Shown here piece by piece: positions 8,311 to 54,485 of a stretch of 64,000 bases of DNA; positions within the stretch are counted from its first letter, which is position 1, and each line of letters begins with the position of its first letter. The notes below the pieces were generated by a model. That model did not search any database, was not told where the DNA came from, and saw nothing but the letters and a program-made list of their open reading frames with translations. The translations under genes were made by a program, and so were the position numbers. The DNA is from Patescibacteria group bacterium. GTDB taxonomy: Bacteria; Patescibacteriota; Microgenomatia; UBA10105; UBA927. Where the stretch lies: NCBI GenBank assembly GCA_049322955.1, contig JBMOPU010000012.1, positions 83,581 through 147,580 of the forward strand, read 5' to 3'.

Positions 8311-9855
8311 ATGGATAACACTGTCTATCCGGGTGCCATAAATGAGGTGCATTACGGGCTTCAAAAACAGACCCCCAGTTATCAAAGTGAATTTCCTAAC
8401 GATCTTCCCTTTGACCCCGGAGCAACCTCAAGTCTTTTTGAACTCAACTATTTTCCCTCGACGGCGTCGAGGCTTCTACTTATGATTCCGCTGGTGTTAC
8501 TTCTTTTTCTGTTTTTTTTTCGTAAATATGCAAAAAACAGACAGGGGGAATTATTATTTCTTATCGCGATGTCGCTTGTTTTTTTTGGTCCGCTAAGGCT
8601 TCCTTCATTCCTGCAATTTAATACGACACTCGGGTTAGTCAAAGGCGTAGGACTGTTGCTCCTCTTATATACTTTTGTTGGAATTGTCGTGAGAAAAGTG
8701 CGCTTTGATATTTTTGCCATACCTTCGCTTGTAAGGGTGGGTTCTTATGTGCTGAGCCTGATGCTTTCCGTATTGGTTATGACGAACCCCAGTTTTTTCC
8801 TTGACGATTTCGGTATTGTCATCACCGGCTTGTTATTTTATTTTTTCGGTTATCTATATTTTTCATGGGAAATGGCAAAAACGCTACTCCTTATGTGGGC
8901 ACGACTCCTAGTTATCCCCAGTTTTATGGTGATATTCATTTTTTTGAATAACGCGATCGGTAAAGAACTGGTTTCTCTCCTGTTTCAGCGGTATGATAAC
9001 TTTGTTTTTTTGCATGATCTGAATAGAGGAAGAATTTTTTCCGTTATCGACTTTGAGTACTTTATTCCGTGCATCGCAATGTTCTTTGTTGTCGCCAAAA
9101 CCCAGAGAAAACACCTGGCCGGATATCAGTTTGCATTGCTTACCGCGCTTTCGTTTATCGCAATATTGCTGGTGAATTATCGGTATAGATTTCTTACCTA
9201 CATGTTGGGACTTGTTACGGTGTCATTTCTTCTTAAAAAATTTTCTCCGATCATACGAAAATATACGACGATTATTATCGTTTCACTCGGCACCCTCTAT
9301 TTCTTTTTCTCTTTAGCATTTTTTAGATCAACAATTCTCGATCGGTTTTTGGTAAGAAACTATGCGGAAGATCAGGTGAGTATTGAGCGGCGATTTACGA
9401 TGTACGGTCAGGCTTGGGAGCTCTTTACACAAAAACCGATTCTCGGAGTAGGCCTCGGAAACTATAAGGATAACGTTCAAATAGTTTATTCACGATTTGG
9501 AGGTAGAACGTACGAACCGTACTATAAAATTCTCCAAAACGTCTATGCATACCCGCATAATTGGTTTCTCACCGTACTTGCGGAAAACGGCATTGTCGGA
9601 TTTGCGGTATTGATGTGGATGCTTATCATGTTCGGGGTGATGGATTTCAGGCTATACAAAAAACTTCCCCTGGAAAACCACGCAATTTTTGTGATTATAA
9701 GCACGATCAGCTGGTTATATATCTTTGCAAATATGTTCACGATGATGCACGTATCACTTCCCATGGTAATCGTTTTCTGGGCGTGTCGCGGAATGATCGA
9801 ACGGATGTATCTTGATCTGTCGATACAGAAGAAACTTCGCTCAGCGCGAAAGTAA
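8311..9855 (+). CDS. O-antigen ligase/polymerase-family membrane protein (Wzy/WaaL-like).
   Basis: 514 aa polytopic protein with GVGLGNYKD...YAYPHNWFLTVLAENGIVGFAVLMWML, typical of the Wzy_C/O-antigen ligase domain. Confidence 0.7.
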   Translation: MDNTVYPGAINEVHYGLQKQTPSYQSEFPNDLPFDPGATSSLFELNYFPSTASRLLLMIPLVLLLFLFFFRKYAKNRQGELLFLIAMSLVFFGPLRLPSFLQFNTTLGLVKGVGLLLLLYTFVGIVVRKVRFDIFAIPSLVRVGSYVLSLMLSVLVMTNPSFFLDDFGIVITGLLFYFFGYLYFSWEMAKTLLLMWARLLVIPSFMVIFIFLNNAIGKELVSLLFQRYDNFVFLHDLNRGRIFSVIDFEYFIPCIAMFFVVAKTQRKHLAGYQFALLTALSFIAILLVNYRYRFLTYMLGLVTVSFLLKKFSPIIRKYTTIIIVSLGTLYFFFSLAFFRSTILDRFLVRNYAEDQVSIERRFTMYGQAWELFTQKPILGVGLGNYKDNVQIVYSRFGGRTYEPYYKILQNVYAYPHNWFLTVLAENGIVGFAVLMWMLIMFGVMDFRLYKKLPLENHAIFVIISTISWLYIFANMFTMMHVSLPMVIVFWACRGMIERMYLDLSIQKKLRSARK

Positions 9856-24716: not shown

Positions 24717-25361
24717 CTATTTTGATGGATCGGCAAACTGCATAACCGCATGCCGTAACAATCTGCGTTTTGACGCCGCAAGCTTGGGCATACCTGCAAG
24801 CTGTGTCCACCATTCCGTACTCGCCACCGCTTCGGCATTTGCCGCGAGACGCCGGGATTGCGGGAGAGTAAGTTGTTTTTTGGAATATTTCAACCATTTC
24901 TTTGCTTCCGTATATCCCTGTTCGACAAGAATATTTTCCTGAAATAGCTGATCCAATATATCCGCATCTTTTACCACTTTTGCCGCAAGCGACTTTTGGG
25001 CAAGAAAGGTATGATAGTGCGTAAGAAAGATACTACGGATAGTTGGCGGCAACGGATGGATGATATCGGTAAAGGCGTCGGTTTCCGCCTTTGTTTGATA
25101 CCGCTTATGCACGAAATTGGCATCACCAACCCGTGATTCCGCAATATCATGAATGAGCGCCATGAGGCTTACCTCCTGCAAATTCGCTCCGACCTCTTCC
25201 GCAAGCAGTAAGGCGATCATTGTGACATTGTATGAGTGGTCGGCTATGGATCCCATGTCGACGTTGAATGTTTGGTAAGAACTTCTTCTGATACGCTGGA
25301 GTGAACGAATTTCATTGATAAAGTTCACAACGCCGTTATCTTTTTTGAATGCTTTTTTCAT
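24717..25361 (-). CDS. HD-domain phosphohydrolase (YfbR-like 5'-deoxynucleotidase family).
   Basis: Has ADHSYNVTMIALLLAEE...LIHDIAESRVGD (H...HD...D). It overlaps the 3' end of the upstream QueC-like gene. Confidence 0.7.
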   Translation of the reverse strand: MKKAFKKDNGVVNFINEIRSLQRIRRSSYQTFNVDMGSIADHSYNVTMIALLLAEEVGANLQEVSLMALIHDIAESRVGDANFVHKRYQTKAETDAFTDIIHPLPPTIRSIFLTHYHTFLAQKSLAAKVVKDADILDQLFQENILVEQGYTEAKKWLKYSKKQLTLPQSRRLAANAEAVASTEWWTQLAGMPKLAASKRRLLRHAVMQFADPSK

Positions 25362-26301
25362 ACGAGTGTTGCAGGGCAACGGTTATTCTTCTGGTGGCGT
25401 TGTGTATTTTACTTTGGACCATTCCCATCGGCAAGTCTGTCCAATAGACCGTGTGATCGCATATTCCCGCCCGTTCGTACGCCTCTTTTCTTGTCCGACA
25501 TCCGTCACATCTCCCGCAATGGTACACCCCTCCCCAGTAACAACTCCATGTTTTTTCAAGCGGCATGCCATAATGATTCGCCCATTGGATAAGCGTTTCT
25601 TTTTCCCAAAAATATCCGCACTCTCTTTCCAGCGCGAGTGAGGCGATCTGCCATGACGAATCGTTGGTAAGTACGATAGTATTCATGGTCACCGAACGAA
25701 GCGCGGTGAATGTTTCATACGCCATACCGACCCCGTCCTTGGCGATAAAACTGTTAAATACGGTACGTATCCTTACTCCCCGGGTTAACTCCAGGTATCG
25801 GGCATATTGGACCGCATACCCGTTCAATAGCGATGAGTACATCGGGATCCCGTGTCGTTGAAGCGTTGTAGTATTGAAAATAGCGTCCGCAACGTCCGTA
25901 ATTCTCCATCGGATTTCCCGTGGCGGTATCGGTGCATTGATGAGTATCGGCTGATGATACTGCGAAGGGTATTGCTTCTGGAAAAAATCGGTAAAAAAGT
26001 AAAACGATCGAAGCTCCTTCGCAACGCGTCGATGTCCTCTTTTTATATATAACGGGTAAATATGCAATCCGTATTTTCTCATAAGAATGTCGCTAGCGAC
26101 CGTGCTGTCCAGACCGCCGGAAGAGAGCATGATAACCGGCGTGTTGGGTCGGGGCATGCGGAATATATATCCGCGTGTTTTCAATAAAAACGATTCGATA
26201 CTTGCGACCGCCGGCATGTTTTCCAGCGGGCGTTTTTGTAAAAGCATTGTGATGGTATTTTTCTGTTTTCGGGGAAGGATATAAGCGGTCTGCTTCTTCA
26301 T
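25336..26301 (-). CDS. QueC/ExsB-family PP-loop ATP pyrophosphatase with an N-terminal extension. Either an N-acetyl-sugar amidotransferase (WbpG/PseA-like) or a 7-cyano-7-deazaguanine synthase homolog.
   Basis: Has VIMLSSGGLDSTV (SGGxDS) and a C-terminal CYWGGVYHCGRCDGCRTRK (Cx7CxxCxxC, a QueC-type Zn motif). 321 aa. Confidence 0.65.
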   Translation of the reverse strand: MKKQTAYILPRKQKNTITMLLQKRPLENMPAVASIESFLLKTRGYIFRMPRPNTPVIMLSSGGLDSTVASDILMRKYGLHIYPLYIKRGHRRVAKELRSFYFFTDFFQKQYPSQYHQPILINAPIPPREIRWRITDVADAIFNTTTLQRHGIPMYSSLLNGYAVQYARYLELTRGVRIRTVFNSFIAKDGVGMAYETFTALRSVTMNTIVLTNDSSWQIASLALERECGYFWEKETLIQWANHYGMPLEKTWSCYWGGVYHCGRCDGCRTRKEAYERAGICDHTVYWTDLPMGMVQSKIHNATRRITVALQHSYEKSIQKR

Positions 26302-28610: not shown

Positions 28611-28746
28611 TGCGCGACAGCAATTTTTCCAATCGGACAATTTTCTTTTTATAGTATATAGGTCGCTTTATACCCGGTTAACCACCGGGTTTTTTATAGG
28701 AATAGAGTTGACAACCGTTGATTTATAATGTTACTATAGGTTAATT

Positions 28747-30870
28747 ATGGTGGCTCCTGAGGCACTACATATACCGGAGAAAAGCATACACGAAGCGTTA
28801 ATAAACGACGCGAGACGCCCCAAGTTGGTCGAGACACTCCCCGATTGGATGCAACGAGATACCCACGTACGATTCGGTGACCATGACATTGAACTGGAAA
28901 CAAACAGACTCCCGCGCATCGAAGGCGTCATGGGGGTTGTTAACCTCCTGCGGAAAGGCCAAGCGGAACTGAACCGGCCCTCAGGAGCCGTTACGCACGA
29001 GACGGCACAAGACAAGGAAGCTGGTGTGTTGCTTATCAAAAGCATTCTTGAAATAGCCGGGCTTGCGGCGGGTAGTGCCGCTATGAAAAAGGGTCGGGGC
29101 AAAAACGCCCTGCTTTTTTTGGGAGGGCTTGGGCTATTTGCCGGAGGCGGCATCGGGCTCACGATGGATTTATCGGGCTGTGCCTCTGCGATAGCGACCG
29201 AAGTGCCCCCGGGCACGCCGACCGCGCTTCCTGCGACGGAAATGCCCCCACAAGTTACCGTAACGCCGCTCAGCAACGAGGTTGTGGTGGGAACGCCTTC
29301 TTCCGCACCCGAGACCCCCGCTCCCATCCAAGGGGCATCATATCCTACCGAGGTATCGGTTCTTGAATCGCCGCTTGTGTATAGTTACGGAGGCGAGGCG
29401 GGACGCCAAAACATGAACGAATATACCCGGCAATTATTTGACCGTTATGTTGCGGAAATGAGTCGCTCCGGGTTCCTTACGGGTACCACCGTTGACCAGC
29501 TCTATCGATCCTTTGACCAGGGATACGATTTTAAACTTTTCACTACGGATCAGGGGCTTACCTGGTTAGTGCAAAGCAAATCTGATGGGAGCTTCTTGGT
29601 GCCAAAAGATCTGGACGGACAAATTTTTCGTGATTTACAACTTCCGTATAATTACCTGTTTGACTCAGGAGTAGCCGTTGAGGTTGGGCTTGATAACTTT
29701 AATTTCCAACGGTTTCAGGCAAACAAAGTAGGGTTTGTCGGCGCATGGCCGGTGCTTGTCACGGTTGACGGACAAGGTGTTCCGGTGAGTTGGGTGAACA
29801 TGGAACAGGGTGGTGCCGCAACCCCGATTACGGTAGCCTCTACAGTAGAGGCACCTACCCATGCATCGACCGATGTCCCCGACTCCCGTGTCGCCCTTAC
29901 GGTGGGAGCCGAGACGTTTCGAGTAACCACCGACGTTCGGTATTCGGAGTCGATCACCGATGTCAACATCGATCCTGCAAAGGCACAAAAAATCGGTGAA
30001 GTATTGGTCTATACCGATGCCGCAGGACGACTACTCTGGAATGAGCACCTGCAGGCATGGGTGCCGGAGTTTGGAACCAGTATGGACTATAAAACTCCCG
30101 AAACCGCACCAGTAGTACCGTTTGATGCGTATTATGACGGATCGAAGCCTGATGCCAGTACGTATATACCAAGTTCAGCCGCTTTGAGTGATATGTTGTA
30201 TATAGCCGAACACCCAGACCTGATTTCTCCTGATGCGTCATATCCCTACTATAGAGTGGCACTCTTCGGCAATGATAAAGCGAGGATAGGCTACGAAATT
30301 GTTCTTACTGGACCAAATCAATATCTTATTAGTAACGAAAACAAGACGGAGGTAACAAACAAAAAGCCGTTACCGTTTAATTATTTTGGTGTTCAGCAAA
30401 CAAAAGATAAAGACGGCAACATAATTTACGTTATAAAAAAGGCTAACTGGAATCCGATGCCGACAAATGAGCGAAATATCCTTGTGACTAATATGGGATT
30501 TGATAAGTCTGCATATGATGAATGGTTTAAATATCCATTAATTATGAGATACATTGAAGCCGATTCCTCAGTGACTGGTGGTGAGCTTGTGCCTCTTTTT
30601 CTTTCACCTGACGGACAGTTTCAGGAAACGAATCCGAATCTTTTTTATCTTGAAACTCAGCCGGCGAATCCTCATGTGGCCGCACTTGTGAGTAAAGATC
30701 TGACTGATATTTTTAGTCAGGAGGTCCAGACCAGTATTGATCTCCTGTATCCGCAGATAAATAAGCCTTTTGACGAAAAAACGAACCCAGGAAGCTATCT
30801 CATAGGAGTCTTACCGTCTGGGTTAACAAATATGATTCACTATACAGGAGTCCAGACGTTTTATCCCTAA
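28747..30870 (+). CDS. Large cell-surface protein, no recognisable family. The internal ATG at 29083 gives a perfect lipoprotein signal peptide (MKKGRGKNALLFLGGLGLFAGGGIGLTMDLSGC). The C-terminal ~190 aa are compositionally distinct.
   Basis: One long ORF of 707 aa. Hydrophobic stretch plus lipobox L-S-G-C at residues 113-145. Pro/Thr-rich linker. The 3' 570 nt are conspicuously AT-rich compared with the rest of the gene. Confidence 0.6.
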   Translation: MVAPEALHIPEKSIHEALINDARRPKLVETLPDWMQRDTHVRFGDHDIELETNRLPRIEGVMGVVNLLRKGQAELNRPSGAVTHETAQDKEAGVLLIKSILEIAGLAAGSAAMKKGRGKNALLFLGGLGLFAGGGIGLTMDLSGCASAIATEVPPGTPTALPATEMPPQVTVTPLSNEVVVGTPSSAPETPAPIQGASYPTEVSVLESPLVYSYGGEAGRQNMNEYTRQLFDRYVAEMSRSGFLTGTTVDQLYRSFDQGYDFKLFTTDQGLTWLVQSKSDGSFLVPKDLDGQIFRDLQLPYNYLFDSGVAVEVGLDNFNFQRFQANKVGFVGAWPVLVTVDGQGVPVSWVNMEQGGAATPITVASTVEAPTHASTDVPDSRVALTVGAETFRVTTDVRYSESITDVNIDPAKAQKIGEVLVYTDAAGRLLWNEHLQAWVPEFGTSMDYKTPETAPVVPFDAYYDGSKPDASTYIPSSAALSDMLYIAEHPDLISPDASYPYYRVALFGNDKARIGYEIVLTGPNQYLISNENKTEVTNKKPLPFNYFGVQQTKDKDGNIIYVIKKANWNPMPTNERNILVTNMGFDKSAYDEWFKYPLIMRYIEADSSVTGGELVPLFLSPDGQFQETNPNLFYLETQPANPHVAALVSKDLTDIFSQEVQTSIDLLYPQINKPFDEKTNPGSYLIGVLPSGLTNMIHYTGVQTFYP

Positions 30871-30941
30871 AAGCATAAAGAGAGCCTCCCCTGCCCTTAG
30901 TCTAATTGCATCTTCGTTCGGCTTTTGTTACAGTTTTCTTA

Positions 30942-32552
30942 ATGAGGAAGTTATTGTTTTTTATCGTATTGCTTTTCCTCTTTGTGCCGTTCGCTTCTGT
31001 ATCCGCGCAATATGTCACCCCTACGCAGGGTATCACCCCCACCGCTTGTCAACCGAGAACTTGTGATCAGCCTCCACCCAGTAATTGTAGTACTCTTCCA
31101 AATACAACATGGGGATCATTCCCTGTCTGTAATCATGGTGCTGACGGGTGTGGAGCGGTGTGGAGTTGTACGCAGACAACGGGTTGTACGGACGATGCCT
31201 CTTGGTCAGATTGGTCAGGATGTGCACCGGGAATAGAAGGAGAAACGAGGTACTGTATTAACTCAGCCTGTTGTGGTAATGCCGCCGAAGCACGTCTTTG
31301 TGATCCCAGTCCGACGGGACCCGGAGGACCGGGAGGAAACCCAACTGATCCGCCCGGGGTACCAACGGCCACACCCAACACTCCGCAGATCGGTGATATT
31401 CAGGCTCGAGCCGTTCAAGTAGATCCCGCCGATACGTCGTGTGCCGCCATCCGGGCAATTCCCACGACCGACGGCGAAGTGAACGGCGCGGTGCATCAGT
31501 TCACTCCCTCATCCGCTAGCCAACCGGCCGCCCAAACACAAACAGGTGCAAATTACGTAACCTTTGCCAATGTTGCGGCAGGGACCTACACGATAGATCC
31601 CAGTCCCCCAAGCGCGGATTGGGCATACGTACGGGCTTGCTCCAGAAACCTTGACAATGGTACCAATGCCGAAGGACTTTCACGCAACCTGCCCAATGCC
31701 GCGGTGCTCCGATGGGATATCGGATACACTTTAGGAACCGCGTGGGTGCAAGCTCAGGGAGGTGACGTCTATAGTTCGGGAACCATCCGTTCCTATCTTC
31801 CGTCGGTGACGCCAAGAGTATTTATCACCGACGGGACGGGCGGCTATCCCGGCATCATGACGTACGGCACAAGCTTTGATTTTGACAGCGATCCGTATGA
31901 AACGGGAGCGACTATCGTATCTGCCGACAACTGGCAGGTCAACGCAAGCCGTGCGAGCGTCAATTACTATGACTATTTTTACCGACGGTTCGGTGCCCCG
32001 ACGACTCCGACAACCGCCGCTCCGTTTGATAACCTCACCGCGGTTACGCAACCCGCGTCAAACTGTACGGCATCGACCTGTACTCCCTACTATGTCGTCG
32101 GAGATATGACGACCAGCGGCGCCTGGTCGGTGGGTGCCGATGAGCGGATAGTAATTCTTGTGAACGGTAATTTAACTATCGGCGGACGAATCAATATTAC
32201 GGGTAACGGCTTTATCGCATTCATCGTCAACGGGACAATCACGGTTTCGGATACCGTGGGTACGACGGCCGCTTCCACAACCCCCGTTGTCGAGGGCATT
32301 TATATCGCGACAACCGAAACTCAAACCGGGAGCATCAATACGGGCGAAAGTTTAGCGGCGGGAACTGCCCGATTTGTCGGAAAGGGCATGTTCGTCTCAA
32401 ACGGCTTCCTTCTTCAACGGGATCTACAGGGTTTTGGCTCGGGAAATACCGCAAATGCCGCGGAGTTATTCGTATATAATCCTCAGCTCTTGCTTACGAT
32501 GCCCGACAGTATGAAGGAGTTATCCGTCACCTGGCAGGAGGTATCACCGTAA
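30942..32552 (+). CDS. Secreted protein with a Sec signal peptide, an N-terminal Cys-rich module, a Pro/Gly linker, and a beta-helix-like C-terminal domain; no recognisable family.
   Basis: MRKLLFFIVLLFLFVPFASVSA then QYV. There are 14 Cys in about 90 aa. Linker PSPTGPGGPGGNPTDPPGVPTATPNTPQ. Repetitive VILVNGNLTIGGRINITGNGFIAFIVNGTITVSD. Confidence 0.6.
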   Translation: MRKLLFFIVLLFLFVPFASVSAQYVTPTQGITPTACQPRTCDQPPPSNCSTLPNTTWGSFPVCNHGADGCGAVWSCTQTTGCTDDASWSDWSGCAPGIEGETRYCINSACCGNAAEARLCDPSPTGPGGPGGNPTDPPGVPTATPNTPQIGDIQARAVQVDPADTSCAAIRAIPTTDGEVNGAVHQFTPSSASQPAAQTQTGANYVTFANVAAGTYTIDPSPPSADWAYVRACSRNLDNGTNAEGLSRNLPNAAVLRWDIGYTLGTAWVQAQGGDVYSSGTIRSYLPSVTPRVFITDGTGGYPGIMTYGTSFDFDSDPYETGATIVSADNWQVNASRASVNYYDYFYRRFGAPTTPTTAAPFDNLTAVTQPASNCTASTCTPYYVVGDMTTSGAWSVGADERIVILVNGNLTIGGRINITGNGFIAFIVNGTITVSDTVGTTAASTTPVVEGIYIATTETQTGSINTGESLAAGTARFVGKGMFVSNGFLLQRDLQGFGSGNTANAAELFVYNPQLLLTMPDSMKELSVTWQEVSP

Positions 32553-32571: not shown

Positions 32572-33969
32572 ATGACCTTCGAACAGCTTCGGTTGAAGCA
32601 CCCACGACTCATTTATAAGCGATACAACGTAACCAAATCCGATGCGGCGATTACGATAGAACATGAATTTCTGCTTGAGCCTGATATACCGTTTCGCGCA
32701 TCCACTACCATTCCCCATACGGGTGAGTTTCACGAGGAGGCGTTTGCCCCCTATGCGTTCCATTTAGGGCTGATTGAAGCGGTAAGCTATTGGAAAACGG
32801 CATGCCCCCGTGAATTTGTAGTAGAAGCGGGATATCTTGACGCTACGCAACTGCGGTTTTGGTACGATCTTTTCATCCATGGGTTGGGCGAGTTTTTCTA
32901 TCGAAATGCCATAGACTTCACCGCTCCCGAATTTCTTACCATTCGTACTACGGGTGAAGCGTTGCCTCCGAGCATTCCGTTTTCCCCCGCAGATATCGCC
33001 TCAACGGATCTGGTACTCGTCGGCGGCGGCAAGGATACTGCAGTGACGTTGGGAATGTTAAAAAATAGCGATAGAACAATCCAAACCATGATTGTTAATC
33101 CGACTGACGCGGCACGAAAATCCGTTGCTATCGCCCACTTCTCCTCCCCTCTTATCGTGAGGCGGGTAATGGATCCGCAACTTATGATCTTAAATAAGTC
33201 GGGGTATTTAAACGGGCATACCCCATTTTCCGCCTATCTTGCATTTCTTGGTATAGCGGTTGCATTTCTCCATAGAAATACTTCGGTGATTGTCTCCAAC
33301 GAAAGAAGTGCAAACGAAGGAAACGTTGTCTATAAGGGAATGGAAATAAATCATCAATACTCCAAAAGTTTCCGCTTTGAAACGCTGTTTCGCCGGTATA
33401 TTGCGGATGTATTTCCCGCGGCGGCTAACTACTTTAGCATGCTTCGTCCGTTAAACGATATTCAGATCGGGTTACTCTTTGCAAGGCTTCCGGAGTTTTT
33501 TCCCACTATCAGGAGTTGCAACGCCGGAAGTAAAAAAGGTATTTGGTGCGGGAAGTGCTCCAAATGTGCCTTCACCTACCTTGTCCTTTCTCCGTTTATC
33601 GCCGAAGCGGATCTTCTTCGCATATTCGGGAGTGATTATTTTCATGATCCCGATATCATCCAATATGTCCGTGAGCTCGTCGGGTTAACCCCGGTGAAAC
33701 CCTTTGAATGTGTGGGCACCCGGGATGAGGCAAAACTCTCGTTGCTTCTTGCGATTTCCCGGTATAAAAAAGAATCACGGGAAATACCCGAGGGCTTGCT
33801 TACGATAAAAAGTGATCTCGGTCTTACCGAAGAAGATACCTTGTTTCTCAAGGAACGGGTATTTGATGCGTGGGGTGATACCTTTAATCTCCCGCCGGAG
33901 CATATGAGTCTGCTTCGACTTACTTGGGAGAGAGCGCGAGAAAACTACGAGAAAACCGCACAACCATGA
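32572..33969 (+). CDS. Hypothetical protein with a PP-loop-like motif and a Cys cluster. Candidate MurL-like UDP-MurNAc-L-Ala-L-Glu epimerase, based on synteny with murD.
   Basis: 465 aa with LVLVGGGKDTAV (an AANH/PP-loop-like variant) and CNAGSKKGIWCGKCSKC. Its stop overlaps the murD start as ATGA. Confidence 0.35.
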   Translation: MTFEQLRLKHPRLIYKRYNVTKSDAAITIEHEFLLEPDIPFRASTTIPHTGEFHEEAFAPYAFHLGLIEAVSYWKTACPREFVVEAGYLDATQLRFWYDLFIHGLGEFFYRNAIDFTAPEFLTIRTTGEALPPSIPFSPADIASTDLVLVGGGKDTAVTLGMLKNSDRTIQTMIVNPTDAARKSVAIAHFSSPLIVRRVMDPQLMILNKSGYLNGHTPFSAYLAFLGIAVAFLHRNTSVIVSNERSANEGNVVYKGMEINHQYSKSFRFETLFRRYIADVFPAAANYFSMLRPLNDIQIGLLFARLPEFFPTIRSCNAGSKKGIWCGKCSKCAFTYLVLSPFIAEADLLRIFGSDYFHDPDIIQYVRELVGLTPVKPFECVGTRDEAKLSLLLAISRYKKESREIPEGLLTIKSDLGLTEEDTLFLKERVFDAWGDTFNLPPEHMSLLRLTWERARENYEKTAQP

Positions 33970-35333
33970 ACGAAATACACGGCACATCAGCACTCATTGT
34001 CGGATTCGGCCGGGAAGGTAAAAGCGTGTTGGCATGGCTCAATACGCACTATCCGAACCTTCGTATCGGAGTTGCCGATCGGACATTTGCACCCGACCAT
34101 ATGTCAGGAAGCACAAAGGATGGGGTGACGGTGTATAACGGAGAAGGATACCTTTCGCATTTGGCTGAGTATGACACGGTTATTCGAAGCCCGGGCGTAT
34201 CCCCGTATCTTCCCGAGTTTATTGCATATAAGAAGGGACCCGGTCATCTGACGAGCGCAACTAATATTTTCTTTTCGAAAGTCAAAGGGATTACGGTGGG
34301 AATAACCGGTACCAAGGGGAAAAGTACCACGTCAAGTCTTATCGCACACCTTTTGAAATTTCACTATACCGATGTCCGCCTCGTCGGGAATATCGGTATC
34401 CCCATGTTGGATTCCCTCGATACCGCTACATCAAAAACGGTGTTTGTCATGGAGCTTTCGAGTCATCAGCTCTATGATTGCCGGTATAGCCCGCAGGTGG
34501 CGGTGATGTTGGGAATCGTATCAGAACATCTGGATTACTATCCGGATCTCATAAGCTATGCGCATGCGAAAGCAAATATCATAGCGCATCAGACAAGCGA
34601 TGGGTTGTTAATTTATAATCCGGCTCATACCATCCTTCGTACGCTTGCCGCCTCCCATCGGGGAAAGAAAATTACGTATGGTTTGGAGAAGGCCGACGAA
34701 CACCACGTCACGATAAAAGATGGGATAATCACCGTGAATCAAAAAGGACGATTGGTATCGGTGATACCGATGACACAAGTTCCCCTTCTCGGAAATCAGG
34801 AGAATATTCTCGCCGCCGTCTCCGCGGCTTCGGTACTGGGTGTATCACCCGAAGTGATTGCGCAGGCAATTACCCCGTTTCAATCACTTCCCCACCGTCT
34901 CGAATACGTCGGGGAATTTTTGGGCATTCGATTCTATAACGACTCGCTCGCAACGATTCCCCAAGCGACGATTCATGCGCTTTCCGCACTCGGTCCCGAT
35001 GCAAGCACCCTTATTGCCGGAGGCTACGATCGACATCTGGATTTTGCCGAACTCGGAGCATATCTGCGGAGTCATCCGATAAAAACGCTTATTCTTTTTC
35101 CCGACACCGGCGAAAAAATATGGGAGGCAATCGGCCAAGTACAGGCCGGGGCAATTACCAGATTTACCGTGAACACGATGAAAGAAGCGGTACAACTGGC
35201 ATATGACAACACTCCGCAAGGAGCAATTTGTCTGCTCTCACCGGGAAGTGCAAGCTATAATCTATTTCGTGATTATGCCGATCGGGGAGATCAGTTTAAG
35301 CACTGGGTAAGGGCTTTTGGTGGTGCGCAGTGA
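33966..35333 (+). CDS. murD: UDP-N-acetylmuramoyl-L-alanine--D/L-glutamate ligase (MurD family).
   Basis: Has LIVGFGREGKSV...GITGTKGKSTTSSLIAHLL (Mur ligase P-loop) and the C-terminal Mur ligase domain. Confidence 0.85.
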   Translation: MNEIHGTSALIVGFGREGKSVLAWLNTHYPNLRIGVADRTFAPDHMSGSTKDGVTVYNGEGYLSHLAEYDTVIRSPGVSPYLPEFIAYKKGPGHLTSATNIFFSKVKGITVGITGTKGKSTTSSLIAHLLKFHYTDVRLVGNIGIPMLDSLDTATSKTVFVMELSSHQLYDCRYSPQVAVMLGIVSEHLDYYPDLISYAHAKANIIAHQTSDGLLIYNPAHTILRTLAASHRGKKITYGLEKADEHHVTIKDGIITVNQKGRLVSVIPMTQVPLLGNQENILAAVSAASVLGVSPEVIAQAITPFQSLPHRLEYVGEFLGIRFYNDSLATIPQATIHALSALGPDASTLIAGGYDRHLDFAELGAYLRSHPIKTLILFPDTGEKIWEAIGQVQAGAITRFTVNTMKEAVQLAYDNTPQGAICLLSPGSASYNLFRDYADRGDQFKHWVRAFGGAQ

Positions 35334-51973: not shown

Positions 51974-52834
51974 TTAGAGCTCTTCAAGCTTTACGCGTTC
52001 GGTGTGTTTATCCGAGATAAATTCGAGATATTTTTCGGTGGTTGAAAGTCGTTTATGTCCGACAAGCTTACTGATCGTCGTAAGCGCGGTTCCCGACATA
52101 AGGTGATGGGCGATAAAGGTGTGGCGGAGGTCGTTGACCTTCGCGTCCTCGATACCAGCCACTTTAAAATAACGGTCAATTGCCGTGCGGATGTTGCGAA
52201 TGAGAAGCGGACGTCCGGTTTTTGTGATGAAGAGAGAAGAAGATTTCGCCTCGGCATTTCGTGCTTTACGCCAATTATCAAGCGCTTCTTTTGCGGCACG
52301 GTTTAACGGAACGGTTCGTTCTTCATGCCCTTCCTGAGCGGCAATGTGAAGCTCGGAATCTTTAACATCGGAAACGGCTAAGTTCGCCAGTTCACCGATC
52401 CGGAGGCCCGTTTGCAAGAAAAGCTCGACGATGGCATACGTGCGGATGTCACCCCGGCATGCATCACGGAGGGCACGGTATTCAAGCTTCGAGAGAATGC
52501 GCGGCGGTTTCACCTCATATTTCGGGTGTTCGATATCAGTTGCGGGATCCTGGGTAATACTTCCTGACGTTTTTAAGAAACGGTAAAACGTCTTCATTGA
52601 GTTGATCTTCCGGGAGATTGATTTCGGTGTGTAGCTATCGGCCGCTAGTTTTTTTAGAAAGGCCTCGAGCTCCTCTTTGGTAACGGTGGTGATGTCTTTT
52701 TTGCCGACGTTCGTAAGAAACGCCACTAACTGCTCAATATCCTTGCTGTATGCTACGATAGTTGCGTGGGCCCGCTTCCGCGAGGACAGATATTCCACAA
52801 ATTGCTTGTGAGCCGATTTCAAATCAAGTGTCAT
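51974..52834 (-). CDS. Tyrosine site-specific recombinase (XerC/XerD-like).
   Basis: 286 aa with an N-terminal SAM-like core-binding domain and C-terminal catalytic residues (...RHTFIAHHLMSG...LVGHKRLSTTEKY). Confidence 0.8.
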   Translation of the reverse strand: MTLDLKSAHKQFVEYLSSRKRAHATIVAYSKDIEQLVAFLTNVGKKDITTVTKEELEAFLKKLAADSYTPKSISRKINSMKTFYRFLKTSGSITQDPATDIEHPKYEVKPPRILSKLEYRALRDACRGDIRTYAIVELFLQTGLRIGELANLAVSDVKDSELHIAAQEGHEERTVPLNRAAKEALDNWRKARNAEAKSSSLFITKTGRPLLIRNIRTAIDRYFKVAGIEDAKVNDLRHTFIAHHLMSGTALTTISKLVGHKRLSTTEKYLEFISDKHTERVKLEEL

Positions 52835-52944
52835 GATATGTCCCTAAGGCAACATACACCGTTCAATTGAGGCAGGAAATTGAGGCGGTATGGAACCCGG
52901 TTATTGAAGCCTATAATATCATATACAAGACCAAAATACAACCT

Positions 52945-53277
52945 ATGAAGATCGCCCGTATTATCATCGCCGTTATTAGCCTCGGATTAGCCGTGTCGGC
53001 GGGCAGGACGATAGCCGAGTTATGGCAACAAAAGGGGAGGGTGGGCGACCGGGAGCGTGAACTGAACCGTATTCTCACGGAAAATAAACGGCTGGAATCT
53101 CAACTTGCCGATATGAAAGATCCTTCGTATGTTGAGCGGGTAGCGAGGGATCAGCTGGGCATGGTAAAAGAAGGTGAAGCGATCGTGATGTTGCCACAGG
53201 GGGGATCAAGCGCAGGCATAAGCGGCGGTGAACGGACACTGCCCGTCTGGCAACAATGGCTCAGACTTTTCTTTTAG
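52945..53277 (+). CDS. FtsB/DivIC-like septum formation initiator (single transmembrane segment plus coiled coil).
   Basis: Has MKIARIIIAVISLGLAV...LNRILTENKRLESQLADMKDPSYVERVARDQLGMVKEGEAIV. Confidence 0.6.
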   Translation: MKIARIIIAVISLGLAVSAGRTIAELWQQKGRVGDRERELNRILTENKRLESQLADMKDPSYVERVARDQLGMVKEGEAIVMLPQGGSSAGISGGERTLPVWQQWLRLFF

Positions 53278-53298
53278 TTTGGTATTCACCCGTACAAG

Positions 53299-53370
53299 TG
53301 CCAGCGGCAGGGATCGGACCTGCGACAAATGCCTTATGAAGACACTGCTCTACCACTGAGCTACGCTGGC
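53299..53370 (-). tRNA. tRNA with a CAT anticodon (elongator Met or lysidine-Ile type).
   Basis: Hand-folded 72-nt cloverleaf: acceptor GCCAGCG/CGCTGGC, D arm GCTC-AGTGGTA-GAGC, anticodon loop TTCATAA, T arm GCAGG-TCCGATC-CCTGC. CCA not encoded. Confidence 0.8.
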
Positions 53371-53592
53371 AAAATATTGGATACTGTCGGCCAAGGGCTG
53401 ATGAGCCATTGACCCAAACGCCACTGGCGCAAGTTTATGTATTTTATCAGATTGAGACGGGAAGACAACCTACGTATTGGGCCTCTCTTCGTGATACAAT
53501 ACCCCTATCTAGCCTTTCTGCTCGTATACTGTTCCCCGAAAGTTGAATAGGTACGTGATAGATAGGAAGTAAAGAGGAGGTGAATTGTAACT

Positions 53593-54024
53593 ATGGCAAC
53601 GAAATTGTTTGTTGGGGGACTTTCATGGGATACGACGGAAGACACACTTCGCAATCATTTTGCGCAGGTGGGTCAGGTAGCAAGTGCACAGGTGATTACC
53701 GATAAATTTACGGGAAGATCACGCGGATTCGGATTTGTTGAAATGACCAATCCCGATGATGCACAAAAAGCTATCCAGGATTTGAACGGCACACAGCTCG
53801 ACGGAAGATCCATTGTGGTCAACGAGGCAAAACCGATGGCCCCTCGTGAGAATCGGGGTGGTGGAGGATACCGTGGCGGTGGTGGTAGCGGCGGCGGATT
53901 TGGAGGTGGAAGAAGCGGTGGCAGAGGTGGATACGGAGGCGGAAGACGAGATGATCGTGGCGGACGCGGAGGATATGATCGACGCGACAATCACGGTGAT
54001 GATCGTGGAGGAAGAGATTGGTAA
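53593..54024 (+). CDS. RRM-type RNA-binding protein with a Gly/Arg-rich (RGG) C-terminal tail.
   Basis: KLFVGGLSWDTTE (RNP2) and RGFGFVEM (RNP1), followed by GGGYRGGGGSGGGFGGGRSGG. Perfect AGGAGGTG RBS. Confidence 0.85.
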   Translation: MATKLFVGGLSWDTTEDTLRNHFAQVGQVASAQVITDKFTGRSRGFGFVEMTNPDDAQKAIQDLNGTQLDGRSIVVNEAKPMAPRENRGGGGYRGGGGSGGGFGGGRSGGRGGYGGGRRDDRGGRGGYDRRDNHGDDRGGRDW

Positions 54025-54050
54025 CTCTGAAATTGCGTTATGAATAAAAT

Positions 54051-54078
54051 CACCCCGCCTAGGCGGGGTGATTTTTTA
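54051..54078. terminator. Bidirectional intrinsic terminator between the RRM gene (+) and the GIY-YIG gene (-).
   Basis: CACCCCGCC-ta-GGCGGGGTG stem followed by ATTTTTTAT, with an A-rich stretch on the other side. Confidence 0.7.
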
Positions 54079-54321
54079 TAGGGAAAGATGGAGTCGTTCA
54101 ATCTTTTGTTTGTGTGACCATGATTTAATTTCCCATTCCCTTCGCAATGCGTTCGATTTTGTTTCGCATGATTCGGTATAGATTACCGCAAGCGGGGGAT
54201 GGGTGCGGGTATACGCACCACCCTTTCCCTTTTCATGCATACGCGTGCGTTTTGCGAGATTGTTGGTAATGCCGGTATAAAGGCTGTTGCCGTTGCATCG
54301 GAGAATATAAACCGTCCACAT
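54076..54321 (-). CDS. GIY-YIG nuclease-domain protein (UPF0213/YhbQ-like).
   Basis: Has MWTVYILRCNGNSLYTGITNNLAKRTRMHEKGKGGAYT...REWEIKSW. The internal ATG at 54321 was chosen. Confidence 0.7.
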   Translation of the reverse strand: MWTVYILRCNGNSLYTGITNNLAKRTRMHEKGKGGAYTRTHPPLAVIYTESCETKSNALRREWEIKSWSHKQKIERLHLSL

Positions 54322-54378
54322 GGGGAAATTGTACGAGAAAGAACGAGCATTCGATAGTCCTCCCAATGAGGACATGAC

Positions 54379-54412
54379 AAAAAAAGACTCCCGAAAAAGG
54401 AGTCTTTTTTAT
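54379..54412 (-). terminator. Intrinsic terminator downstream of the tRNA at 54413-54485 (minus strand).
   Basis: AAAAAAAGACTCC-cgaaaaa-GGAGTCTTTTTTATT hairpin, flanked by A and T runs. Confidence 0.6.
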
Positions 54413-54485
54413 TGGTTGCGGGGCCGGGAATCGCACCCGGCCTAGGAGATTATGAGCCTCCTGTGCAACTTTACACTACCCCGCG
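54413..54485 (-). tRNA. Initiator-like tRNA-fMet (CAT anticodon).
   Basis: Hand fold: acceptor CGCGGGG/CCCCGCA with a C1:A72 mismatch, U8A9, anticodon loop CTCATAA, T arm CCGGG-TGCGATT-CCCGG, discriminator A, encoded CCA. The D loop is unusually short (6 nt). Confidence 0.65.

What the first reader, a model, noticed from the sequence alone, without database searches (positions are those of the whole stretch)
28747..30870. Large orphan surface lipoprotein with an abrupt composition shift in its last ~570 nt (swappable C-terminal module?)
No recognisable family. The internal Met at 29083 starts a textbook lipoprotein signal (MKKGRGKN, a hydrophobic core, then L-S-G-C). The 112 codons upstream are in frame and hydrophilic. 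A Pro/Thr-rich linker follows, then a domain of about 400 aa. From about 30300 to the stop the DNA becomes markedly AT-rich (visibly much lower GC than the rest of the gene), encoding ~190 aa rich in K/N/Y/F. Such composition breaks are typical of horizontally exchanged or cassette-switched C-terminal domains (polymorphic toxins, adhesin tips, receptor-binding modules).
Basis: seen in the sequence. Interest (0 to 1): 0.75.

Follow-up and report, generated by a model that had tools for sequence, protein, structure and literature searches.

The report
Mosaic surface protein with swapped tail
This gene from an uncultured Candidatus Gottesmanbacteria bacterium encodes a probable membrane-anchored surface protein, and its AT-rich tail marks a roughly 1.3 kb stretch, reaching into the next gene, that recombination has swapped between strains.

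Summary
The ORF (28747-30870, 707 aa) and the composition break are real. GC3 falls from 0.54 to 0.37 at about nt 30088, reached by 2 of 2000 permutations and the strongest break among 21 long genes in the window. About 60% of the GC drop comes from amino-acid composition and about 40% from codon choice. The low-GC3 tract runs past the stop codon, about 480 nt into the next gene.

Two strain pairs are 100% identical in DNA up to the module and then drop abruptly to about 40-45%. Synonymous divergence in the window's tail is saturated, against 0.33-0.39 in flanking genes.

The "swappable module" idea holds, with different boundaries. The internal Met start does not hold. No toxin, diversity-generating retroelement or silent cassette was found. 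Function is inferred only: an exposed recognition domain kept diverse by allele exchange.

The parts
28672..28696 (+). Intrinsic-terminator-like hairpin plus T-run that ends the upstream sugar-transferase gene.
   Evidence: Found by the scan. The hairpin and T-run are conserved in the 5 loci closest to the window and diverged in L012.
28708..28737 (+). Promoter-like site: TTGACA, 18 nt, (TG)TACTAT. It ends 9 nt before the ATG, so the mRNA is probably leaderless or nearly so.
   Evidence: 10 of 12 consensus matches. Both hexamers are invariant in 6 loci. In L012 the ATG lies 2 nt further from the -10 and its N-terminal protein is only 15% identical.
28747..30870 (+). Coding sequence of the 707-aa modular surface protein.
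   Evidence: The exact protein occurs on 4 contigs from several sequencing runs.
28747..29082 (+). N-terminal domain, aa 1-112. It is translated and probably cytoplasmic. It is itself mosaic between strains.
   Evidence: Conserved in homologues. dN/dS is 0.15-0.18. pS against L009 is 0.66, compared with 0.29-0.38 in flanking genes. A hydrophobic or amphipathic helix lies at aa 94-112.
29083..29181 (+). Internal signal-peptide-like segment, aa 113-145. It has a positively charged stretch (KKGRGKN), a hydrophobic helix (aa 121-140) and the lipobox L-S-G-C. Cys145 is the only Cys in the protein.
   Evidence: C145 is invariant in 17 homologues. The protein has a single Cys.
29182..29268 (+). Pro/Thr-rich stalk, aa 146-174.
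   Evidence: It matches the linker that follows the lipobox in stand-alone lipoproteins.
29269..29841 (+). Conserved core domain, aa 175-365. It holds most of the invariant residues (VYSYGG, FDRYxAE, GAWPV, PVxWxNM).
29842..29886 (+). Thr/Pro/Ala inter-domain linker, aa 366-380. It is the left crossover site in the pair L022 / L002.
29887..30867 (+). C-terminal module A, aa 381-707. It is an autonomous domain that also occurs as stand-alone lipoproteins.
30088..31425 (+). Low-GC3, deeply diverged tract interpreted as the exchanged cassette. It covers the 3' 780 nt of the gene, the spacer, and the first 161 codons (signal peptide, Cys-rich N-domain and Pro-rich linker) of the next gene.
   Evidence: GC3 change points. 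DNA identity to L006 falls to 36-60% against about 90% in the flanks. pS is 0.85-0.98 in the tail and 0.70-0.73 in the downstream 5' part. The nearest relative switches at aa 431-445.
30942..32552 (+). Conserved downstream partner gene, 536 aa counted from ATG 30942. It has a signal peptide, a variable Cys-rich N-domain, a Pro-rich linker and a highly conserved C-domain of about 400 aa.
   Evidence: It follows the target, directly or after one small ORF, in all 9 loci whose downstream flank was held (window, L001-L006, L009, L012). Alignment. Its copy in L009 gives a borderline DUF7305 match (27.5 bits against a cut-off of 27). The family has at least 175 members.

Best explanation
**What it is (shown).** The ORF is a real gene for a modular protein of a family found so far in Candidatus Gottesmanbacteria and related Patescibacteria.

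**Layout (inferred from sequence).**
- An N-terminal domain of about 112 aa stays in the cytoplasm.
- An internal signal-peptide-like helix ends in a lipobox with the protein's only cysteine.
- A Pro/Thr stalk, a conserved core domain and a distal 330-aa module are outside the cell. They are held by the membrane helix, a lipid on Cys145, or both.

**How it varies (shown).** The distal module exists in several deeply diverged allele classes. These classes are moved between strains by homologous recombination. The left crossover falls in the conserved core, the linker, or the start of the module. The right crossover falls in the conserved part of the next gene. So the module's 3' part, the spacer and the 5' end of the partner gene travel together as a cassette of about 1.3-1.45 kb.

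**The window's allele.** It is such a recombinant. Upstream of about nt 30090 it is closest to strain L006. Downstream it matches the allele class of strain L009 and of a uniformly AT-rich stand-alone lipoprotein gene (L018). The visible AT-richness is partly the module's K/N/Y/F/I-rich composition and partly the foreign, low-GC3 codon usage of that allele class.

**Function (inferred, not shown).** The distal module is an exposed recognition or binding surface, for a host cell, a polymer or a phage. It may work together with the secreted partner protein. Frequency-dependent selection would keep it diverse.
For: **Gene and start codon**
- Homologues conserve the 112 N-terminal codons but not Met113.
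- dN/dS of that region is 0.15-0.18.
- The promoter hexamers are invariant and an ATG follows within 9-11 nt in 6 loci.

**Anchor**
- Lipobox-like motifs and an invariant Cys occur in all 17 homologues.
- It is the only Cys in the protein.
- Stand-alone relatives of the module carry canonical N-terminal lipoprotein signals.

**Module**
- The AlphaFold2 model has pLDDT 90.4 and pTM 0.89.
- The profile search finds the module alone in proteins of about 320-400 aa, and behind other N-termini.

**Exchange**
- L012 and L015 are 100% identical in DNA for 3.9 kb, then about 40% identical from about aa 415-445 to the gene end.
- L022 and L002 are 100% identical for 1170 nt. They are about 45% identical until 100-290 nt into the downstream gene, and 0.9-0.99 identical after that.
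- Window against L006: flanks are about 90% identical, and 30016-31100 is 36-60% identical.
- pS in the tail is 0.85-0.98, against 0.33-0.39 in five flanking genes.
- The segments give incongruent groupings. P0004 is 95% identical in the core but 46% in the C-terminal part. P0013 is 15% identical in the N-terminal part but 64% in the C-terminal part.
- L006 and L009 are 96-97% identical in the flanks, yet the window shares its tail with L009.

**Composition**
- The GC3 change point at nt 30088 coincides with the switch of nearest relative.
- The stand-alone allele in L018 has GC3 0.356 along its whole length, in a locus of 44.7% GC.

**Reproducibility**
- The window's protein occurs on 4 contigs, P0002 on 8 and P0004 on 4.
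Against: - No experiment or homology gives a function. Surface exposure, lipidation and a binding role are all inferred.
- Topology is ambiguous. There are two hydrophobic segments, aa 94-112 and aa 121-140.
- A lipoprotein signal 112-200 aa from the N-terminus is unorthodox. No lgt or lspA gene was found among the window ORFs that were scanned.
- Low GC3 in this module also occurs in several genomes of 46-49% GC. So it could be a maintained property of the module, such as codon selection, rather than a sign of recent import.
- P0016 and P0006, one partner in each clean pair, were each seen on a single contig.
- Whether the stand-alone copies sit in the same genomes as the long genes is unknown.
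Confidence: 0.72

Rival explanations
1. There is no exchange. The AT-rich tail is a vertically inherited part of a single domain. Its low GC simply reflects a K/N/Y/F/I-rich composition plus local codon preference.
For: - About 60% of the GC drop is predicted from amino-acid composition alone.
- The tail belongs to one compact modelled domain, present at the same position in 13 of 17 homologues.
- Low GC3 recurs in this module in several genomes.
Against: - GC3 itself drops, reached by 2 of 2000 permutations.
- Synonymous divergence in the tail is saturated, while flanking genes show pS of about 0.35.
- There are abrupt 100% to about 40% junctions in two strain pairs.
- The groupings of N-terminal part, core and tail disagree.
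Confidence: 0.08
2. It is a polymorphic toxin or contact-dependent effector. A conserved N-terminal carrier bears interchangeable C-terminal toxins, each with a cognate protective gene next to it.
For: - The architecture is a conserved front plus at least six unrelated C-terminal modules.
- Divergence junctions are sharp.
- Part of the next gene co-varies.
- Loci with other modules carry extra, mutually unrelated small membrane-anchored ORFs of 116-232 aa.
Against: - Module A also exists as ordinary stand-alone lipoproteins with their own signal peptides.
- No toxin family, defence family or fold was found.
- The window's tract holds no small immunity-like ORF.
- The next gene is a 536-aa secreted protein conserved in every locus.
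- No secretion-system domain is present.
- dN/dS is well below 1 throughout.
Confidence: 0.1
3. It is programmed intragenomic variation. Either a diversity-generating retroelement rewrites the tail, or silent cassettes are copied into the expressed gene by gene conversion.
For: - The variable region is C-terminal.
- Related module copies exist elsewhere as separate genes carrying the same allele classes.
Against: - There is no template/variable repeat pair, and no other repeat of 30 nt or more involving the gene, in 64 kb.
- No other copy of the core or the module occurs in the window or in the flanks (2.7-10 kb) held for the homologous loci.
- The differences are whole-segment replacements with saturated synonymous divergence, not adenine-targeted changes.
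Confidence: 0.04
4. It is an assembly artefact. The mosaic genes are chimeras of co-occurring strains or species, joined by the assembler.
For: - All sequences are metagenome assemblies.
- Two contigs carrying the window's protein end within 24 nt upstream of the gene.
- Several alleles sit on very short contigs.
Against: - The same full-length alleles recur in independent assemblies: 4, 8, 4 and 3 contigs.
- All mosaics are in frame and full length.
- The two-sided junction in L022 / L002 returns to 0.9-0.99 identity.
Confidence: 0.04

Closest known systems
Recombining surface-protein cassette loci, such as the Clostridioides difficile S-layer cassette (slpA with neighbouring genes). This comparison rests on my own knowledge and was not checked here.
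   Same: - An exposed envelope protein exists in discrete, deeply diverged allele classes.
- The classes are swapped between lineages by homologous recombination.
- The exchanged tract spans more than one gene.
- The locus lies next to surface-glycan genes.
- The protein is acidic and free of Cys apart from the anchor residue.
   Different: - There is no sequence or fold relationship.
- Only the distal module and the start of the next gene are replaced.
- Anchoring is by a membrane helix and lipobox rather than cell-wall-binding repeats.
- An S-layer role is untested.
Host-interacting lipoprotein loci of Borrelia that diversify by selection and recombination (PMC11389397; title and abstract seen).
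   Same: Lipobox-bearing surface proteins with allele classes maintained and shuffled by recombination.
   Different: - The organism and the fold are different.
- Here the lipobox is internal, behind a conserved 112-aa domain.
- The variable part is one module of a multi-domain protein.
- No host or immune system is known.
Polymorphic toxin systems (CdiA-CT/CdiI, Rhs). This comparison rests on my own knowledge.
   Same: - A conserved N-terminal body with abruptly diverging, interchangeable C-terminal modules.
- Adjacent sequence co-varies.
   Different: - There is no toxin domain, no small immunity gene in the tract and no secretion apparatus.
- The module also exists as a free-standing lipoprotein.
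The hypervariable gene module of Thermococcales, centred on a large Ig-domain protein (PMC8416519; abstract seen).
   Same: A large exposed protein with variable neighbouring genes, interpreted as a conflict or recognition locus in a poorly studied lineage.
   Different: - The domains are different.
- That system varies mainly in its downstream gene content.
- Here a defined intragenic cassette is replaced.
The hypervariable PTD-repeat surface protein of a Gracilibacterium (PMC6851277).
   Same: A candidate-phyla-radiation surface protein with one N-terminal membrane helix and extreme local variation that fragments assemblies.
   Different: - That case is nucleotide variation within a tandem repeat whose amino-acid sequence stays conserved.
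- This case is replacement of a globular domain by diverged alleles. It has no repeats.

Membership tests
Bacterial lipoproteins (substrates of Lgt and LspA) | A lipobox [LVI][ASTVI][GAS]C with an invariant Cys (consensus as quoted in PMC12462473). | tested here: met
   The window has L-S-G-C. Most of the 17 homologues carry a canonical motif (LSGC, LASC, LAGC, LTGC, LSAC); a few deviate at position -3 (e.g. FASC, ATAC). The Cys is invariant and is the only Cys in the protein.
Bacterial lipoproteins (substrates of Lgt and LspA) | The signal peptide (charged stretch, hydrophobic stretch, lipobox) lies at the N-terminus of the precursor. | tested here: not met
   The signal-like segment is aa 113-145. 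The preceding 112 aa are conserved, under purifying selection, and start right after an invariant promoter. In type-2 homologues it lies about 190 aa into the protein.
Bacterial lipoproteins (substrates of Lgt and LspA) | The genome encodes Lgt and LspA. | tested here: inconclusive
   Neither was found among the window ORFs that were scanned. The rest of the genome is not available. Stand-alone relatives with canonical lipoprotein signals suggest the pathway exists in these lineages.
Bacterial lipoproteins (substrates of Lgt and LspA) | Diacylglycerol modification and cleavage before the Cys. | not testable with these tools
   This needs mass spectrometry or a globomycin experiment.
Polymorphic toxin systems (CdiA-CT / Rhs type) | A conserved N-terminal region followed by abruptly variable, interchangeable C-terminal domains. 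| tested here: met
Polymorphic toxin systems (CdiA-CT / Rhs type) | The C-terminal domain is a toxin (nuclease, deaminase, pore former, peptidase and so on). | tested here: not met
Polymorphic toxin systems (CdiA-CT / Rhs type) | A small cognate immunity gene lies immediately downstream and co-varies with the toxin. | tested here: not met
   The next gene is a conserved 536-aa secreted protein. Only its 5' part, about 60-160 codons, co-varies.
Polymorphic toxin systems (CdiA-CT / Rhs type) | A dedicated delivery system or trafficking domain. | tested here: not met
   No such domain is in the protein or its neighbours.
Targets of diversity-generating retroelements | A template repeat matching the variable region, and a nearby reverse transcriptase. 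| tested here: not met
   No repeat involves the gene in 64 kb. No reverse transcriptase is among the neighbours.
Recombining surface-protein cassette loci | Near-identical flanks with abrupt junctions to deeply diverged alleles, and groupings that disagree between segments. | tested here: met
Recombining surface-protein cassette loci | The variable part is exposed on the cell surface. | not testable with these tools
   This is inferred from the signal-like helix, the lipobox, the Pro/Thr stalk and the lipoprotein relatives.

The most novel reading that the evidence does not exclude
The C-terminal module and the N-terminal Cys-rich domain of the secreted partner are a co-adapted pair that is inherited as one cassette. 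It would be a strain-specific lock-and-key on the cell surface of a candidate-phyla-radiation bacterium, setting host or partner specificity or self/non-self recognition. The carrier would be a new kind of lipoprotein precursor, whose conserved cytoplasmic pro-domain of 112-200 aa is cut off at an internal lipobox.
Probability: 0.15. Interest if true: 0.8.

Novelty: new variant of a known kind. Interest (0 to 1): 0.55.

Why it matters
- Candidate-phyla-radiation bacteria are thought to live attached to other cells, but the proteins that mediate and diversify that contact are almost unknown.
- This locus gives a concrete candidate with no curated family: a modular surface protein whose distal domain has no similar solved structure.
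- Natural strains visibly replace that domain as a cassette, together with the start of a conserved secreted partner.
- It gives specific constructs for binding or localisation tests, namely module A and the partner's N-domain. It may also serve as a marker locus for strain typing in groundwater metagenomes.
- The internal lipobox behind a conserved N-terminal domain raises a question for lipoprotein biogenesis.
- The general principle is well known: exposed proteins diversify by recombination.

Tried and rejected
**Searches that found nothing**
- Pfam, NCBIfam, PHROGs and PADLOC scans of the protein, its relatives and alternative-module proteins. Only noise-level hits appeared, SSSPR-51 and BNR.
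- A PDB sequence-profile search: none.
- Foldseek against viral structures: nothing at E <= 0.001.
- A viral-contig scan for the module: none.
- Rfam and tRNA scans: nothing near the gene.
- Lgt and LspA among the window ORFs that were scanned: not found.
- Literature searches for Gottesmanbacteria lipoproteins and for DUF7305: no papers.

**Searches that failed or added little**
- The AlphaFold database library was not available.
- The metagenome-contig scan only re-found the P0002 contig. Two earlier attempts failed because the alignment was too diverse.

**Ideas rejected**
- A diversity-generating retroelement or silent cassettes. There are no meaningful repeats in 64 kb, and no second copy of the core or the module in the window or in the flanks of homologous loci.
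- An internal start at Met113.
- Amino-acid composition as the sole cause of the shift.
Full report
**1. Observation**

The ORF 28747-30870 (+), 707 aa, exists as described. The window averages 47.5% GC. The front of the gene is 54-62% GC and the last 570 nt are 38.9% GC. That is z = -2.8, and only 0.4% of 570-nt windows are as low.

The drop is not only a matter of amino acids.
- GC3 of codons 519-707 is 0.365, against 0.50 +/- 0.03 for the window's genes.
- A likelihood change-point places the GC3 break at codon 448 (nt 30088; support interval 29956-30166). GC3 is 0.544 before and 0.373 after.
- Only 2 of 2000 permutations reach that score. It is the highest of 21 long genes in the window.
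- The second-highest score belongs to the next gene. Its first 161 codons have GC3 0.41, against 0.58 for the rest. So the low-GC3 tract runs from about 30088 to about 31425, across the stop codon.
- With the window's own codon usage, amino-acid composition alone predicts GC falling from 0.530 to 0.452. The observed fall is 0.541 to 0.408. About 60% of the drop is therefore composition (K/N/Y/F/I make up 32% against 16%) and about 40% is codon choice.

**2. Organism and locus**

Related loci in genome collections are titled Candidatus Gottesmanbacteria, a lineage of the candidate phyla radiation.

The gene order is conserved in nine related loci:
- an ABC-2 exporter
- a Bac_transf sugar transferase
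- the target gene
- a secreted protein of about 540 aa
- a MurL-like epimerase
- MurD
- rnpA
- yidC

Upstream in the window lies a surface-glycan cluster with Wzy_C, a Wzx-like flippase and glycosyltransferases. In L005 the wider context differs, yet the target and the secreted protein stay together. They are the constant pair.

**3. Anatomy of the gene**

A terminator-like hairpin (28672-28690) ends the upstream gene. A promoter-like site follows: TTGACA, 18 nt, TACTAT, at 28708-28737, ending 9 nt before the ATG. The promoter hexamers are invariant in six loci, and the ATG position in five. In L012 the ATG lies 2 nt further from the -10 and its N-terminal protein is only 15% identical.

The 112 N-terminal codons are conserved as protein. 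Met113 is A or I in other members. dN/dS of this region is 0.15-0.18. Translation therefore starts at 28747, not at the internal Met.

Residues 113-145 look like a lipoprotein signal. They contain KKGRGKN, a hydrophobic helix at aa 121-140, and L-S-G-C. All 17 homologues keep a lipobox-like motif and the Cys. It is the only Cys in the 707 residues. A second hydrophobic or amphipathic helix at aa 94-112 leaves the topology somewhat open.

After the Cys come four further parts.
- **Pro/Thr stalk,** aa 146-174.
- **Conserved core,** aa 175-365. It holds most of the invariant residues.
- **Thr/Pro/Ala linker,** aa 366-380.
- **C-terminal module,** aa 381-707.

No curated family matches any part.

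**4. The C-terminal module is an autonomous domain**

A profile search of 1.84 billion representative proteins gave 50 relatives. They fall into three groups.
- About 35 contain only the module. Many are proteins of about 320-400 aa with canonical N-terminal lipoprotein signals (MKK...L-T-S-C) and a Thr/Pro linker.
- Some carry the module behind other N-terminal regions (P0024, P0025, P0033).
- Others carry the core followed by different C-termini (P0021, P0022, P0028 and others).

So the AT-rich 570 nt are the back part of one larger domain, not a module of their own.

**5. Evidence for exchange**

Per-segment identities disagree strongly.

| Pair | N-terminal part | Core | C-terminal part |
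|---|---|---|---|
| window and P0004 | 79% | 95% | 46% |
| window and P0013 | 15% | 61% | 64% |
| P0006 and P0010 | 100% | 100% | 36% |
| P0013 and P0016 | 99% | 98% | 26% |

At the DNA level, three comparisons show the junctions.
- **L012 and L015** come from two wells of one groundwater site. They are 100% identical for 3.9 kb, then about 40% identical from about aa 415-445 to the end of the gene.
- **L022 and L002** are 100% identical for 1170 nt. They are about 45% identical from the core/module linker until 100-290 nt into the downstream gene. After that they are 0.9-0.99 identical again. Both junctions of a 1.3-1.45 kb cassette are visible here.
- **Window and L006** are about 90% identical in the flanks, but 36-60% identical from 30016 to about 31100.

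Nei-Gojobori estimates for window against L006:
- pS is 0.33-0.39 in five flanking genes.
- pS is 0.85-0.98 (saturated) for aa 441-707.
- pS is 0.70-0.73 for the partner's signal peptide and Cys-rich domain.
- dN/dS is below 0.2 wherever dS can be estimated; in the saturated tail it cannot be computed.

The tail is therefore an old, separately evolving allele and not a decaying or fast-evolving one.

L006 and L009 are 96-97% identical in the flanks, yet the window shares its tail with L009 at about 85%.

A three-way scan shows where the window's nearest relative switches. Up to aa 431-445 it is closest to L006. After that it is closest to L009 and to the stand-alone lipoprotein gene in L018. 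This is exactly where GC3 falls.

That stand-alone gene has GC3 0.356 along its whole length, in a locus of 44.7% GC. An alternative module in L004 has the opposite bias, GC3 0.63-0.78.

The allele classes seen in the long proteins recur in stand-alone genes:
- P0065 and P0023 match the window's class.
- P0064 matches the P0004 class.
- P0066 and P0020 match the P0007 class.

The partner's N-domain class follows the module's class. The window matches L009, and L001 matches L002.

The N-terminal domain is a second mosaic segment. Its pS is 0.66 against L009, and it assorts independently of the tail.

**6. What was excluded**

- There is no repeat of 30 nt or more involving the gene in 64 kb, so no template/variable pair of a diversity-generating retroelement.
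- There is no second copy of the core or the module in the window or in the flanks (2.7-10 kb) held for the homologous loci.
- There is no viral relative.
- There is no toxin or defence family.
- The tract holds no small ORF that could be an immunity gene.
- Assembly chimeras are unlikely. The same alleles recur on 4, 8, 4 and 3 contigs.

**7. Interpretation**

*Shown:*
- The gene is real, with its start at 28747.
- The architecture is modular.
- The C-terminal domain is autonomous.
- The tract that holds this gene's tail and the 5' end of the next gene is replaced as a cassette by homologous recombination.
- The composition break coincides with one such junction.

*Inferred:*
- The part after Cys145 is extracellular. 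It is held by the helix, a lipid, or both.
- The distal module is a recognition surface kept diverse by selection. It possibly acts with the secreted partner, whose N-domain travels with it.

*Not resolved:*
- Whether the N-terminal domain is cleaved off at the lipobox.
- Why that domain is also mosaic.
- Whether the stand-alone genes are the donors.
- Whether low GC3 reflects recent import or a maintained property of the module. It recurs in several genomes of 46-49% GC.

**8. Comparison with known systems and novelty**

The behaviour matches recombining surface-protein cassette loci, such as S-layer cassettes and Borrelia lipoprotein loci (PMC11389397). It resembles polymorphic toxins in architecture only. 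The toxin, immunity and delivery features were tested and not met.

The family itself is uncharacterised and has no similar solved structure. The internal lipobox behind a conserved domain is unusual.

I rate it a new variant of a known kind, of moderate interest.

Noticed in passing
window 32572-35333: A MurL-like epimerase sits directly before a MurD-type ligase, and the two genes overlap by 4 nt. The NCBIfam model MurL_Xanthomonadales scores 226 bits, far below its cut-off of 700. Pfam MurL_N and MurL_epimerase_C match the orthologues. This suggests the MurD2/MurL route to D-Glu in peptidoglycan in a candidate-phyla-radiation genome.
   Followed up: partly
window 28816-29200: The N-terminal, presumably cytoplasmic, domain and the membrane helix form a second mosaic segment. 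DNA identity to L009 is 61-75% against about 90% in the flanks. pS is 0.66, and L006 and L009 are only 59-77% identical here. It assorts independently of the tail. Why a cytoplasmic part should be exchanged is unexplained.
   Followed up: partly
L003 11585-12283; L005 11746-12411; L004 8738-9415; L012 7104-7454: Three of these loci (L003, L004, L005) carry an alternative C-terminal module; L012 carries module A. Each has an extra small ORF of 116-232 aa with one N-terminal membrane helix. The ORFs are mutually unrelated and match no family. They could be module-specific accessory or protective proteins.
   Followed up: partly
window 30906-30942: The mechanical ORF call for the downstream gene starts at TTG 30906. 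Every orthologue begins at the position of ATG 30942 (MRKLL..., a typical signal peptide). The true start is probably 30942.
   Followed up: yes
L020 and L021 (contigs carrying the window's exact protein): Both short contigs begin within 24 nt upstream of this gene; their other ends lie 24 nt past the partner gene (L020) and about 180 nt past the target's stop (L021). L015 ends about 200 nt after its copy, and several other alleles sit on contigs of 2-5 kb. This pattern is typical of strain heterogeneity breaking assemblies at the locus.
   Followed up: no
L016 2098-4401: This locus holds a copy that contains only the C-terminal module. It has a garbled N-terminus and a possible frameshift. 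It is followed by a truncated homologue of the partner gene, and it sits next to unrelated membrane proteins. It is either a rearranged locus or an assembly chimera.
   Followed up: partly
window 8311-9855: A Wzy_C-type O-antigen ligase or polymerase gene is the lowest-GC gene in the window, at 40.8%. The lowest 570-nt window, 37.2% GC, starts at 8791 inside it. It may be a second compositional outlier within the surface-glycan cluster.
   Followed up: partly
window 25336-26301 (-): A 321-aa QueC-like protein lies between the glycan-export genes and an HD-domain gene. It matches only the C-terminal part of QueC and gives a weak QatC-like hit. It is conserved at this position in related loci.
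   Followed up: no
L012 221-2639, also L014 and L015: In the Hainich groundwater strains, toxin-antitoxin-like genes lie around the sugar-transferase gene upstream of the target: DUF6922/AbiEii before it and DUF7387/HicA between it and the target.
   Followed up: no
P0045 (representative search hit): The N-terminus of this protein looked to me like the start of a type I restriction methylase (recalled, not tested). It is joined to the type-2 N-domain, a lipobox and another C-terminal module. It is probably a chimeric or misassembled gene.
   Followed up: no
window 51974-54485 (-): A Xer-type tyrosine recombinase (51974-52834) lies close to two tRNA-Met genes about 1.1 kb apart (53298-53370 and 54413-54485).
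   Followed up: no
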